Shown here: positions 48,947 to 54,893 of the stretch, piece after piece | Layout: the number at the start of each line of letters is the position of its first letter | How positions within the stretch are numbered: the stretch's first letter is position 1 | Assembly: GCF_009914755.1 (NCBI RefSeq) | Contig: NC_060935.1 | Direction: 5' to 3' (one strand) | Origin: the human T2T-CHM13v2.0 reference genome, Homo sapiens | Length of the DNA: 64,000 nt | Translations under genes and position numbers: made by a program | Notes under the pieces: model-generated | Databases searched by the model: none | What the model was told of the DNA's origin: nothing | The model's input: the letters and a program-made list of their open reading frames with translations, nothing else

Positions 48947-49065
48947 AAAAATCAGATTTGAAAACAAAAACAACCAATAGAATTATTAGGTTTACATTAA
49001 AATTACACCTGTATTAATTTATATTTATTATGTTTATATAACAAATATATTAACTTAGAAAAAAA
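48947..49065 (+). repeat. Left copy of a ~115-bp direct repeat (long TSD) flanking the L1PA6-like element
   Basis: Matches 54774-54893 with about 6 substitutions and two 3-bp indels. Confidence 0.93.
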
Positions 49066-52000
49066 AATTTGCTGTTCTGCAATAGTTGCTGTTCTCCAGC
49101 CTCTGCTGGTGATACCCAGGCAAACAGGGTCTGGAGTGGACTTCCAGCAAACTCCAACAGACCTGCAGCTGAGGGGCCTGTTAGAAGGAAAACTAAGAAA
49201 TAGAAAGGAATAGCATCAACATCAACAAAAAGGACATCCACACAAAAACCTCATCTGTAGGTCACCAACATCAAAGACCAAAGGTAGGTAAAACCACAAA
49301 GATAGGGAGAAACCAGAGAAGAAAAGCTGAAAATTCCAAAAACTAGAGCGTCTCTTCACCTCCAAAGGATCACAGCTCCTCTCAGCAACAGAACAAAATT
49401 GGATGGAGAATGACTATGATGAGTTGACAGTACGCTTCAGAAGGTCGGTAATAACACACTTTTCTGAGGTAAAAGAGCATGTTCTAACCCATCACAAGGA
49501 AGCTAAAAACCTTGAAAAAAGGTTAGACTAATGGCTAACTAGAATAAACAGTGTAAAGAAGACCTTAAATGACCTGATGGAGGTGAAAACCACAGCACGA
49601 GAACTTCGTGACGCATGCACAAGCTTTAATAGCTGATTTGATCAAGTGGAAGAAAGGATATCAGATCAGTGATTGAAAATCAAATTAATGAAATAAAGCA
49701 AGAAGACAAGATTAGAGAAAAAAAGAGTAAAAGAAATGAACAAAGCCTTCAAGAAATATGAGACTATGTGAAAAGACCAAATCTATGTTTGATTGTGAAA
49801 CAATCAAACCTGAAAGTGACGGGGAGAATGGAACCAAGTTGGAAAACACTCTGCAGGATATTATCCAGGAGAACTTCCCCAACCTAGCAAGGCAGGTCAA
49901 CAAATTCAGGAAATACAGAGAAAACCACAAAGATACTCCTCAAGAGGAGCAACCCCAAGTCACATGATTGTCAGATTCACCAAGGTTGAAAAGAAGGAAA
50001 AAATGTTAAGGGCAGCCACAGAGAAAGGTCTGGTTACCCACAAAGGGAAGCCCATCAGACTAACAGCGGATCTCTCGGCAGAAACCCTACAAGCCAGAAG
50101 AGACTGGGGGCCAATATTCAACGTTCTTAAAGAAAAGAATTTTCAACCCAGAATTTCATATCCAGCCAAACTAAGCTTCATAACTGCAGGAGAAATAAAA
50201 TCCTTTACAGACAAGCAAATGCTGAGAGATTTTGTTACCACCAGGCCTGCCTTACAAGAGCTCCTGAAGGAAGCGCTAAACAAGGAAAGGAATAACTGGT
50301 ACCAGCCACTGCAAAAACATGCCAAATTGTAAAGACCATCGATGCTATGAAGAAACTGCATCAATTAATGGGCAAAATAACCAGTGAACATCATTATGAC
50401 AGGATCAAATTCACACATAACAATATTAACCTTAAATGTAAATGGGCTAAATGTCCCAATTAAAAGACACAGACTGGCAAATTGGATAAAGAGTCAAGAC
50501 CCATCAGTGTGCTATATTCAGGAGTCCCATCTCACATGCAGAGACACATATAGGCTCAAAATGAAGGGATGGAGGAAGATCTACCAAGCAAATGGAAAGC
50601 AAAAAAAAAAAAAAAAAAAAAAAAAAAAAACAAACAAACAAACAAAAAAAAACGCAAAGGTTGCAATCCTAGTCTTTGATAAAACAGACTTTAAACCAAA
50701 AAGATCAAAAGACACAAAGAAGGCCATTACATAATGGTAAAGGGATCAATTCAACATGAAGAGCTAACTATCCTAAATATATGTGCACCCAACACAGGAG
50801 CACCCAGATTCATAAAGTAAGTCCTTAGAGACCTACAAAGAGACTTAGACTCCCACACAATAATAATGGGAGACTTTAACACCCCGCTGTCAATATTAGA
50901 CAGATCAACGAGACAGAGTTTAACGAGGATATCCAGGACTTGAACTCAGCTCTGCACCAAGCGGACCTAATAGACATCTACGAACTCTCCACCCAAAATC
51001 AACAAAATTTACATTCTTCTGAGCACCACATTGCACTTATTCTAAAATTGACCACATAATTGGAAGTAAAACACTCCTCAGCAAATGTAAAAGAACAGAA
51101 ATCACAACAAACTGTCCCTCAGACCACAGTGCAATCAAATTAGAACTCAGGATTAAGAAACTCACTCAAAACCGCTCAACTACATGGAAACTGAACAACC
51201 TCCTCCTGAATGACTACTGAGTACATAACGAAATGAAGGCAGAAATAAAGATGTTCTTTGAAACCAATGAGAAAAGAATCTCTGGGACACATTTAAAGCA
51301 GTATGTAGAGGGAAATTTATAGCACTAAATGCCTACAAGAGAAAGCAGGAAAGATCTAAAATCAACACCCTAACATCACAATTAAAAGAACCAGAGAAGC
51401 AAGAGTAAACAAATTCAAAAGCTGGCAGAAGGCAAGAAATAATAAGATCAGAGCAGAACTGAAGGAGATAGAGACACAAAAAACCCTTCAAAAACATCAA
51501 TGAATCCAGGAGCTGGTTTTTTAAAACGATCAACAAAATTGATAAACCACTGGCAAGACTAATAAAGAAAAGAGAGAAGAATCAAATAGACACAATAAAA
51601 ATTGATAAAGGGGATATCACCACCGATCCCACAGAAATACAAACTAGCATCAGAGAATACTATAAACACCTCTACACAAATAAACTAGAAAACTTAGAGG
51701 AAATGGATAAATTCCTGGACACATACACCCTCCCAAGACTAAACCAGGAAGAAGTTCAATCTCTGAATAGACCAATAACAGGCTCTGAAATTGAGTCAAT
51801 AATTAATAGTCTACCAACCAAAAAAAGTCCAGGACCAGATAGATTCACAGCTGAATTCTACCAGAGGTACAAAGTGGAGCTGGTACCATTCCTTCTGAAA
51901 CTATTCCAATCAATAGAAAAAGAGGGAATCTTCCCTAACTCATTTTATGAGGCCAGCATCATCCTGATACCAAAGCCTGGCAGAGACACAACAACAACAA

Positions 52001-54773
52001 AAAAAGAGAATTTTAGGCCAATATCCCTGATGAACATCGATGCGAAAATCCTCAATAATATACTGGCAAACCGAATCCAGCAGCACATCCAAAAGCTTAT
52101 CCACCACAATCAAGTAGGCTTCATCTCTTGCATATGAGTCTGGTTCAACTTATGCAAATCAATAAATGTAATCCATCACATAAATAGAACCAATGACAAA
52201 ACCACATGATTATCTCAATAGATGTAGAAAAGGCCTTTGACAAAATTCAACAGCCCTTCATGCTAAAAACCCTCAGTAAACTAGGTATTGATGGAACACA
52301 TCTCAAAATAATGAGAGCTATTTATGACAAACCCACAGCCAATATCATACTGAATGGGCAAAAACTGGAAGCATTCCCTCTGAAAACCGGCACAAGACAA
52401 GGATGCCCTCTCTTACCACTCCTATTCAACATAGTGTTGGAAGTTCTGACAAGGGCAATCACACAGGAGAAATAAATAAAGGGTATTCAATTAGGAAAAG
52501 AGGAAGTCAAATTATCCCTGTTTGCAGATGACATGATTGTATATTTAGAAAACCCCATCGTCTCAGCCCACAATCTCCTTAAGCTGATAAGCAACTTCAG
52601 CAGTCTCAGGATACAAAATTAAAGTGCAAGAATCACAACCATAGCTATACACTAATAACAGACAGAGGGCCAAATCATGAGTGAACTCCCTTTCACAATT
52701 GCTACAAAGAGAATAAAATACCTAGTAATACAACTTACAAAGGATGTAAAGGACCTTTTCAAGAAGAACTACAAACCACTGCTCAATGAAATAAAAGAGG
52801 ACACAAACAAATGGAAGAACATTCCATGCTCATGGATAGGAAGAATCAATATCGTGAGCAGTATGAGGCCATACTGCTCAAGGTAATTTGTAGATTCAAT
52901 GCCATCCCCATCAAGATACCAATGACTTTCTTCACAAAATTGGAAAAACACTATGTTAAATTTCATATGGAACCAAAAAAGAGCCTGCATTGCCAAGACA
53001 ATCCCAAGCAAAAAGAACAAAGCTGGAGGCATCACGCTACCTGACTTCAAACTATACTACAAGGCTACAGTAACCAAAATAGCATGGTACTGGTACCAAA
53101 ACAGATATATAGACCAATGGAACCAAACAGAGGCCCCACAAATAACACCACACATCTACAACCATCTGATCTTTGACAAACCTGACAAAAACAAGAAATG
53201 GGGAAAGGATTCCCTATTTAATAAATGGTGCTGAGAAAACTGGCTAGCAGTACGCAGAAAGCTGAAACTGGATCCCTTCCTTACACCTTATACAAAAATT
53301 AACTCAAGATTCAAGATGGATTAAAGACTTAAATGTAAGACCTAAAACCACAAGAACCCTAGAAGAAAACCCAGGCAATACAATTCAGGACATAGGCATG
53401 GGCAAAGACTTCACGACTAAAACACCAAAAGCAATGGCAACAAAAGCCAAAATAGACAAATGGAATCTAATTAAACTAAAGAGCTTCTGCACAGCAAAAG
53501 AAACTACCAACAGAGAGAACAGGCAACCTACATAATGCAAGAAAATTTTTGCAATCTACCCATCTGACAAAGGGCTAATATCCAGAATCTACAAAGAACT
53601 TAAACACATTTACAAGAAAAAAACAGCCCCATCAAAAAGTGGGCAAAGGATATGAACAGACACTTCTCAAAAGAAGACATTTATGCAGCCAACAGACACA
53701 TGAAAAAAACCTCATCATCACTCGTCATTAGAGAAACGCAAATCAAAACCACAATGAGATACCATCTCATGCCAGTTAGAATGGTGATCATTAAAAAGTC
53801 AGGAAACAACAGATGCTGGAGAAGATGTGGGGAAATGGGGATGCTTTTATACTATTGGTGGGAGTGTAAATTAGTTCAACCATTGTGGAAGACAGTGTGG
53901 CGATTCCTCAAGGATCTAGAACTAGAAATACCATTTGACCCAGCAATCCCATTACTGGGTATATACCCAAAGGATTATAAATCATTCTACTATAAAAACA
54001 TATGCACATGTATGTTTATTGTGGCACTGTTCACAATAGCAAAGACTTGGAACCAACCCAAATGTCCATCAGTGATAGACTGGATTAAGAAAATGTGGCA
54101 CATGGCCGGGCACAGTGGCTCACACCTGTAATCCCAGCACTTTGGGAGGCCGAGGTGGGCGGACCACAAGGTCAGGAGATCAAGACCATCCTGGCTAACA
54201 CAGTGAAACCCTGTCTCTACTAAAAAAATACAAAAAATTAGCTGGGCATGGTGGCGGGTGCCTGTAGTCCCAGCTACTCGGGAGGCTGAGGCAGGAGAAT
54301 GGCGTGAACCTGGGAGACAGAGCTTGCAGTGAGCCGAGATTATGCCACTGCACTCCAGGCTGGGCGACAGAGCTAGACTCCGTCTCAAAAAAAAAAAAAA
54401 AAATGTGGCACATATACACTGTGGAATACTATGCAGCCATAAAAAAGAATGAGTTCATGTCCTTTGCAGGGACATGGATAAAGCTGGAAACCATCATTCT
54501 CAGCAAACTATCACAAGGACAGAAAACCAAACACCGCATGTTCTCACTCATAGGTGGGAATTGAACAATGAGAACACATGGACACAGGGTGGGGAACATC
54601 ACACACTAGGGCCTGTCGGCAGGTGGGGGGCTGGGGGAGGGATAGCACTATGAGAAATACCTAATGTAAATGACAAGTTGATGGGTGCAGCACACCAACA
54701 TGGCACATGTATACCTATGTAACAAACCTGCACATTGTGCACATGTATCCTAGAACTTAAAGTATAATAATTT
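49066..54773 (+). mobile_element. Near-full-length L1 (L1PA6-like), truncated in the 5'UTR; ORF1 (~49302-50332) and ORF2 (~50396-54564) disrupted
   Basis: 5'UTR gatacccaggcaaacagggtctggagtgga; ORF1 C-terminus (..NWYQPLQKHAKL); ORF2 MTGSNSHITILTLNVNGLN; 3'UTR ctaatgtaaatgacaagttgatggg. Confidence 0.96.
54104..54399 (+). mobile_element. AluY
   Basis: Diagnostic gagatcaagaccatcctggctaacac, ggagaatggcgtgaacc, agcttgcagtgagc; TSD aaaatgtggcacat at 54090-54103 and 54400-54413. Confidence 0.96.
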
Positions 54774-54893
54774 AAAAAATCCTTAGATTTGAAAAAAACA
54801 ACCAATAGAATTATTAAGTTTACATTAGAATTATATCTATATTAATTTATATTTATTATGTTTATATAACAAATATATTAACTTAGGAAAAAA
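54774..54893 (+). repeat. Right copy of the ~115-bp direct repeat (long TSD)
   Basis: Immediately follows the L1 3' end; matches 48947-49065. Confidence 0.93.

What the first reader, a model, noticed from the sequence alone, without database searches (positions are those of the whole stretch)
48947..54893. ~115-bp target-site duplication around a near-full-length L1PA6-like element
Seen: the sequence just before the L1 (aaaaatc-agatttgaaaa...taacttagaaaaaa, 48947-49065) is repeated right after its 3' end (54774-54893), with about 6 substitutions and two 3-bp indels. The left copy begins at TTTT|AAAAA (48943-48951), the canonical L1 endonuclease site. Established: genomic L1 TSDs are typically 7-20 bp, and much longer ones are mainly known from cell-culture insertions. 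Inference: a rare germline event with a distant second-strand nick in very AT-rich, easily unwound DNA. The divergence between the two copies also gives an internal date for the insertion.
Basis: partly seen in the sequence, partly recalled or inferred. Interest (0 to 1): 0.72.

Follow-up and report, generated by a model that had tools for sequence, protein, structure and literature searches.

The report
121-bp duplication flanking an old LINE-1
A broken, 5'-shortened LINE-1 jumping element on human chromosome 11 has the same 121 bases of DNA on both sides, about eight times the usual target-site duplication; the copy was likely made by the insertion itself in a primate ancestor's germ line, a known but rarely recorded outcome with no sign of function.

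Summary
The repeat is real: 48947-49067 and 54775-54895, 121 bp each, 7 substitutions in 118 aligned bases, two cancelling 3-bp indels, and only these 2 matches in the genome. It abuts both ends of a dead L1 that is 5'-truncated by about 800 bp, not near-intact. The left copy starts at a TTTT/AAAA endonuclease site. The 5' junction likely held a 4-nt microhomology. The 7 differences match the 6.9-8.2 expected if the copies are as old as the L1 (wide interval). None of 31 related L1s with both ends in view has such a repeat. The unit is a weaker duplex than the same stretch at 18 of 18 short-TSD controls.

Best reading: a long target-site duplication made during insertion (about 0.78 for insertion-coupled; 0.52 for distal top-strand break plus unwinding plus microhomology joining). 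Rivals: sister-chromatid joining, later repair that copied the flank, or an L1 landing in an older tandem duplication with a 7-bp A-rich TSD, which the sequence does not exclude. No primate orthologue could be read and the L1PA6 label is untested. Long TSDs are known from cell culture and neurons; this is a fixed germline example. Modest interest.

The parts
48943..48950 (.). TTTT/AAAA, L1 endonuclease consensus site; inferred bottom-strand nick between 48946 and 48947
   Evidence: Sequence; 20 such 8-mers in the 64-kb window, next nearest at 51519 and 42919; consensus as given in PMC11702581 passages
48947..49067 (+). Left copy of the 121-bp duplicated unit (16% G+C)
49064..49067 (+). 5' junction; inferred 4-nt microhomology AATA shared by target end and L1, now reading AAAA in this copy
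   Evidence: Right copy has T at the matching place (54894); of 11 colinear relatives 10 have T and 1 has C there, 0 have A
49064..54770 (+). Primate LINE-1, 5'-truncated by about 790-810 bp, both ORFs broken (longest stop-free pieces 221, 175 and 170 codons inside L1 coding DNA)
   Evidence: Pfam PF02994, PF17490 (ORF1), PF00078 (RT), PF03372 below its cut-off; 7.7-9.6% p-distance to 18 relatives; truncation; frames
54104..54399 (+). Alu inserted later in the L1 3' part, with its own ordinary 14-bp exact TSD (54090-54103 / 54400-54413); 'AluY-like' is a recalled label
54769..54774 (+). Short decayed tail (AATTTA) running into the A-run of the right copy; tail or target origin unresolved
   Evidence: 3 of 37 relatives also show TTTAAA within 12 nt of the L1 end
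54775..54895 (+). Right copy of the 121-bp duplicated unit (14% G+C)

Best explanation
A 5'-truncated, dead LINE-1 sits between two 121-bp direct copies of unique, very AT-rich DNA, and the second copy was likely made during the insertion as an unusually long target-site duplication. Shown: the repeat, its abutting both L1 ends, the TTTT/AAAA site at its left edge, the truncation, the matching divergence. Inferred steps: ORF2p nicked the bottom strand at 48946/48947 and primed reverse transcription; cDNA synthesis ended about 800 nt short of the RNA 5' end; the top strand broke about 121 nt downstream rather than about 15; the weak duplex between the two breaks came apart; the cDNA end annealed to the top-strand 3' end through AATA; fill-in of both gaps copied the 121 nt. 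The result became fixed, likely some 20-35 million years ago (rate recalled), and has decayed neutrally since.
For: Repeat geometry; unique in the genome, so not two copies of a dispersed repeat. Left edge on 1 of only 20 TTTTAAAA sites in 64 kb. 7 differences seen against 6.9 or 7.6-9.4, mean 8.2 expected from the L1's non-CpG, base-specific divergence. Junction microhomology, which is typical of 5'-truncated insertions (PMC11702581 passages). Extremely long TSDs in HeLa cells went with 5'-truncated L1s (PMC2912911 citing Gilbert 2005). TSDs over 100 bp occur in up to 10% of HeLa events and in most events in NER-deficient cells, where a distal nick is proposed (PMC5223499 passages). Only 0.15-0.36% of the other 121-bp windows in the 64 kb are as weak a duplex, and the unit is weaker than the 121 bp from the TSD start at 18 of 18 relatives with 10-22-bp TSDs.
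Against: No empty site seen: the genome tool holds no relatives. The poly(A) tail is very short and ambiguous. No (C/T)TTT/(A/G) top-strand endonuclease site was found in or just past the right copy, so the second break has no sequence signature. The age match is loose (0.4-2.1 times the L1's age). Both indels sit in the first 20 bp, which a two-step origin would also give, although 2 or more indels in 121 bp has P=0.20. The weak-duplex result is one case, rank 1 of 19 (about P=0.05), and the weak DNA continues past both ends of the unit. The microhomology needs one assumed later T-to-A change.
Confidence: 0.52

Rival explanations
1. Same insertion event, but no second nick on the same molecule: the cDNA-bearing end was replicated or broken off and joined, through the AATA microhomology, to the sister chromatid 121 bp downstream of the nick, giving an L1-bridged tandem duplication. 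The product is letter for letter the same as a long TSD.
For: Sister-chromatid invasion is the model given for a 22.6-Mb L1-bridged tandem duplication in a tumour (bioRxiv 10.1101/179705 passages); small tandem duplications at insertion sites are reported in PMC11702581. No top-strand endonuclease site at the far end. All timing and geometry evidence for the best explanation fits this too.
Against: It does not predict that the duplicated stretch be among the weakest 0.4% of local duplexes. It has no reason to stop as close as 121 bp.
Confidence: 0.26
2. Two steps: the L1 first inserted at TTTT/AAAA with an ordinary TSD and a longer 5' end; a later break near its 5' end was repaired by the left TSD copy invading the right one, copying about 105 more bases of flank and rejoining inside the 5' UTR at AATA, which removed about 800 bp of L1.
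For: Repair-mediated copying of nearby DNA is documented in primates, 824 of 1,136 donors within 5 kb (PMC2671141 passages). Both indels lie in the first 20 bp. It explains truncation and microhomology together.
Against: Needs two rare events at one locus. The part that would be younger (48966-49067) holds all 7 substitutions, so it is not visibly younger than the L1.
Confidence: 0.12
3. The unit was first tandemly duplicated by slippage between the AAAAAT at its start and the AAAAAT at its end; the L1 then landed in the A-run at the junction with a 7-bp TSD (49060-49066 / 54774-54780).
For: The 6-nt motif is at both ends of the unit (48947-48952 and 54889-54894). The 7-bp A-rich match can be read as a separate short TSD, and short TSDs are more frequent at 5'-truncated L1s (PMC2912911).
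Against: The L1 must hit within a few bases of a duplication junction, at a poor site (AG before the A-run, not TT), while the perfect TTTT/AAAA site lies by chance at the unit's left edge (1 per 3.2 kb here), and the two events must be of similar age. My rough prior: L1 hits on such junctions are at least ten times rarer than long TSDs (estimate, not computed from data).
Confidence: 0.08
4. Chance match of AT-rich DNA, two copies of a dispersed repeat, or an assembly artefact.
For: The unit is only 14-16% G+C.
Against: Score 196 against at most 48 in 200 shuffles; 2 matches in 3.1 Gb; copies differ by 7 substitutions and 2 indels, which a mis-assembly would not give; TRF finds no array covering it.
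Confidence: 0.02

Closest known systems
Long TSDs (over 100 bp) of engineered L1 insertions in HeLa and NER-deficient cells (PMC5223499; Gilbert 2005 as cited there and in PMC2912911)
   Same: Direct repeat of target DNA abutting both ends of a 5'-truncated L1, starting at a TTTT/A site; size within the reported range.
   Different: This is an endogenous, fixed, old germline insertion, not a reporter event in cultured cells; its tail is decayed and its empty site was not seen.
Somatic L1 insertions with TSDs over 40 bp in neurons, one of 92 bp (PMC4398972)
   Same: Endogenous L1, long TSD, TPRT hallmarks.
   Different: Somatic, single-cell calls after amplification; the same paper found polymorphic germline insertions to have shorter TSDs.
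Canonical germline L1 TSD (peak 14-16 bp, PMC2912911; 1-31 bp in 29,603 of 30,718 polymorphic insertions, bioRxiv 10.1101/2024.04.18.590093)
   Same: Endonuclease site at the TSD start, 5' microhomology, direct orientation.
   Different: 121 bp is four times the upper end of that range. Some of these pipelines only admit TSDs up to 30 bp (5-30 in PMC2912911; 4-30 as 'canonical' in bioRxiv 10.1101/2025.10.07.680917).
L1-bridged tandem duplications in tumours and L1-expressing clones (bioRxiv 10.1101/179705; PMC11702581)
   Same: One L1 joins the end of a duplicated segment to its start, with an endonuclease motif at the L1 3' breakpoint.
   Different: Those span kilobases to megabases and are somatic; this spans 121 bp.
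Repair-mediated duplications (PMC2671141)
   Same: Short local duplicate, microhomology at a junction, primate age.
   Different: Those are inserted into a break away from the donor and bear no relation to retro-insertion ends; here the copies abut both L1 ends and start at an endonuclease site; the spacing is 5.8 kb.

Membership tests
LINE-1 element | ORF1p, endonuclease and reverse transcriptase remnants in order on one strand | tested here: met
   PF02994 and PF17490 in 49820-50329, PF03372 (22.6 bits, cut-off 24.5) in 50381-50731, PF00078 in 51472-52134 and 52197-52472; 1 of 5 pieces had no match
LINE-1 element | Full-length 5' end | tested here: not met
   Junction lies about 790-810 bp downstream of the 5' start of full-length relatives
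L1PA6 subfamily | Diagnostic nucleotides against the subfamily consensus | not testable with these tools
   No Dfam/Repbase consensus on hand
L1PA6 subfamily | Divergence fitting an age of 18-30 million years | tested here: inconclusive
   3.5% non-CpG and 3.9% overall from the column majority of 19 close relatives; 7.7-9.6% pairwise. PMC2671141 puts L1PA4-6 at 30-18 and L1PA7-8A at 42-30 million years. With a recalled rate this fits L1PA6 or L1PA7.
TPRT target-site duplication | Direct repeat abutting both ends of the insert | tested here: met
TPRT target-site duplication | Endonuclease consensus at the start of the duplicated unit | tested here: met
   TTTT/AAAA at 48943-48950; left edge uncertain by about 6 bp
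TPRT target-site duplication | Poly(A) tail between element and right copy | tested here: inconclusive
   Only about 6 nt, with 3 T; 3 of 37 relatives show the same TTTAAA decay
TPRT target-site duplication | Copies as old as the insert | tested here: met
   7 differences against 6.9 and 8.2 expected; 95% range 0.4-2.1 times the L1's age
TPRT target-site duplication | Single copy at the empty orthologous site | not testable with these tools
   The genome tool holds no relatives for this assembly
Canonical (short) germline L1 TSD | Length up to about 30 bp | tested here: not met
   121 bp against 1-31 bp in print; 0 of 31 relatives had a junction-anchored repeat of 40 bp or more
Repair-mediated duplication (Pace 2009) | Copy captured at a break unrelated to a retro-insertion, donor usually within 5 kb | tested here: inconclusive
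   Spacing 5828 bp and both copies at L1 ends argue against; the two-step version needs orthologues

The most novel reading that the evidence does not exclude
Long TSDs are a regular, under-counted product of germline L1 insertion: in DNA that melts very easily the second-strand break drifts far from the nick, so local duplex strength sets TSD length. Surveys miss them because they cap TSDs near 30 bp, and recombination between the long copies removes some, so fixed ones like this are survivors. Old fixed cases in complete primate assemblies would then give a natural data set on the open question of what makes the second-strand break.
Probability: 0.2. Interest if true: 0.55.

Novelty: new member of a known kind. 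Interest (0 to 1): 0.33.

Why it matters
How the second DNA strand is broken during L1 insertion is still open (stated as unresolved in PMC11702581). Long TSDs had been put down to peculiarities of HeLa cells (PMC2912911) or to loss of nucleotide excision repair (PMC5223499). A fixed 121-bp case shows that the germ line can likely make and keep them, and it points to a cheap genome-wide test. The copies also give 121 bp of homology for precise loss or tandem gain of the 5.8-kb insert. As one dead element in an intron of the lncRNA LINC02725 (hub annotation), it has no shown function.

Tried and rejected
Chance, tandem array and dispersed repeat: rejected. 3' transduction: rejected by reasoning, since each copy runs on into unique flank on its outer side and the extra sequence is the local target. 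The right flank looked to me (from recall) like an ancient L1 ORF1 remnant, which could have served as a stand-in empty site; not supported: no relevant Pfam match in 6 of 6 frames read with X at stops, no tblastn hit with this L1's ORF1 pieces, and a genome search of 54896-55330 gave only itself and 2 short simple-repeat matches. A top-strand endonuclease site at the far end: none found. Survey for other long TSDs: 40 related L1 loci fetched; 31 had both ends in view (18 of 20, 13 of 20; L013 and L020 are near-duplicates, so 30 independent); none had a junction-anchored repeat of 40 bp or more. The longest was a 32-bp A-rich match at L032; a 47-bp repeat at L015 is not anchored. Limits: downstream flank only about 300 bp in the second set; these are the closest relatives, 15 of the first 18 full-length or nearly so, not a random sample; 19 further 5'-end hits and 19 further 3'-end hits were not read at the planned size. 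The upper bound from 0 of 30 is only about 10%. Subfamily naming: a tree of 18 relatives plus this copy is star-like and names nothing. Gilbert 2005, Szak 2002, Zingler 2005 and van de Lagemaat 2005 were not held; they are cited only through other papers.
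Full report
Observation. The sequence before the L1 is repeated after it. An ungapped 100-nt match at 94% lies at 48966-49065 and 54794-54893. A gapped alignment carries it left to 48947 and 54775 across two 3-bp indels of opposite sign and scores 196, against a best of 48 in 200 shuffles. A search of the whole assembly with 48900-49070 finds these 2 places only (counts are lower bounds), and no tandem array covers the unit. 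With the junction reading below, each copy is 121 bp, with 7 substitutions in 118 aligned columns.

The insert. 49064-54770 is a LINE-1: ORF1 and reverse transcriptase domains pass Pfam cut-offs, the endonuclease piece falls just under, and 1 of 5 pieces had no match. Both ORFs are broken. Against 20 close relatives fetched from the genome it is colinear apart from an Alu at 54104-54399 and starts about 790-810 bp inside the 5' UTR. So it is 5'-truncated, which matters because the altered target sites seen in HeLa cells went with that class (PMC2912911 passages, citing Gilbert 2005). It differs by 7.7-9.6% from 18 relatives in a star-like tree. L1PA6 or L1PA7 is plausible from that distance, but the label is recalled and untested.

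The junctions. The left copy begins at TTTT/AAAA (48943-48950), one of 20 such sites in the 64 kb. At the 3' end the L1 is followed by only about 6 nt (AATTTA) before the right copy. These also align with 48941-48946, so the unit may be up to 127 bp; but 3 of 37 relatives show the same T-rich decay in their tails, so I keep the endonuclease site as the likely edge. At the 5' end the right copy ends in AATA, and the L1 relatives read AATA at the point where this copy starts (T at the third place in 10 of 11, C in 1). The left copy now reads AAAA there. The simplest reading is a 4-nt microhomology with one later T-to-A change; this is inferred. Microhomology at 5'-truncated junctions is the usual pattern (PMC11702581 passages).

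Timing. From the L1's own non-CpG divergence by base (A 2.2%, T 3.0%, C 4.7%, G 5.9% from the column majority of 19 relatives) two copies of this composition should differ at 6.9 sites. A pairwise version gives 7.6-9.4, mean 8.2, over 17 relatives. Seven are seen. The match is good, but the Poisson range allows 0.4-2.1 times the L1's age, so the repeat is a poor clock on its own. Two or more indels in 121 bp has P=0.20; both lie in the first 20 bp.

Rarity and context. Of 40 related loci fetched, 31 had both L1 ends in view; none had a junction-anchored repeat of 40 bp or more, and 18 had anchored TSDs of 10-22 bp. This sample is small and biased to close, mostly long relatives; it bounds the rate only below about 10%. 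The Alu inside this L1 has an ordinary 14-bp TSD. The unit is very weak as a duplex: only 0.15-0.36% of other 121-bp windows in the 64 kb are as weak, and it is weaker than the 121 bp from the TSD start at 18 of 18 short-TSD relatives. No top-strand endonuclease motif marks the far end.

Mechanism. I put about 0.78 on the duplication having been made in the insertion event. Within that I commit to: bottom-strand nick at TTTT/AAAA, reverse transcription ending early, a top-strand break about 121 nt downstream made by a host nuclease or a pre-existing nick, melting of the weak duplex, annealing at AATA, and fill-in (0.52). A distal unrelated nick is the model proposed for large TSDs in NER-deficient cells (PMC5223499 passages). 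Joining to the sister chromatid gives the same letters (0.26; model in bioRxiv 10.1101/179705 passages). A later repair event that copied the flank and trimmed the L1 5' end (0.12) and an L1 landing in the junction of an older tandem duplication with a 7-bp A-rich TSD (0.08) are not excluded. The unit does carry AAAAAT at both ends, which would favour slippage, and 49060-49066 / 54774-54780 can be read as a short TSD. Only orthologues can settle these, and none is held.

What is known. TSDs over 100 bp are reported in up to 10% of HeLa events and in most events in XPA-, XPC- and XPD-deficient cells. A 92-bp TSD and a group over 40 bp were reported for somatic neuronal insertions (PMC4398972 passages). 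Germline sets show 14-16-bp peaks and 1-31 bp in 29,603 of 30,718 polymorphic insertions (bioRxiv 10.1101/2024.04.18.590093 passages), but some pipelines admit only up to 30 bp, and PMC2912911 says that longer TSDs in vivo need study. [quoted passage not shown] My searches for fixed germline examples turned up no paper on this locus or on a genome-wide count of long fixed TSDs; the library lacks most subscription papers, and I read passages only, no supplements. PMC11195612 and PMC5753468 (passages) added nothing on the question; PMC2671141 (passages) gave the subfamily age bands and the repair-mediated rival. Gilbert 2005, Szak 2002, Zingler 2005 and van de Lagemaat 2005 were not seen.

Verdict. 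Observation confirmed with small corrections; interpretation supported but not proven. A new member of a known kind: rare, tidy, without shown function, and of value mainly as a prompt for an uncapped genome-wide TSD survey. Interest 0.33.

Noticed in passing
window 17260-19397, minus strand: A second L1 in which about 55 bp of the extreme 5' end is fused directly to the 3'-most 2 kb (about 4.1 kb of the interior missing), bracketed by what reads as a 10-bp TSD. Internal deletion after insertion or a template jump during it; not resolved.
   Followed up: partly
L034 (G000:C1:166012300-166014299): Two head-to-tail L1 3' fragments that start at the same L1 position, 88% alike, each preceded and followed by a similar short motif. 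It looks like a tandem gain by unequal exchange between TSD copies, the reciprocal of precise loss, or a repeat insertion.
   Followed up: partly
L015 1686-1732 and about 7620-7666 (oriented to the L1): A 47-bp direct repeat at 98% on the two sides of a related L1, ending 50 bp before its 5' end and starting about 300 bp after its 3' end; the L1 has its own 16-bp TSD. Likely a local repair-type duplicate.
   Followed up: partly
window 50601-50652: An A-rich microsatellite expansion (about 30 A then CAAA units) inside the L1 endonuclease coding region.
   Followed up: no
window 56641-56940, minus strand: A short L1 ORF2 fragment forming an inverted repeat with 50546-50883 of the main L1 (77-91% complementary, about 6 kb apart).
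   Followed up: no
window 55088-55116 and 55988-56016: A 29-bp inverted repeat at 86% in the right flank; from recall it resembles old L1 ORF1 sequence, but Pfam and tblastn gave no support.
   Followed up: partly
L013 and L020 (G000:C18 and G000:C21): The same L1 insertion with shared flanks on two chromosomes, about 3.4% apart: a segmental duplication.
   Followed up: no
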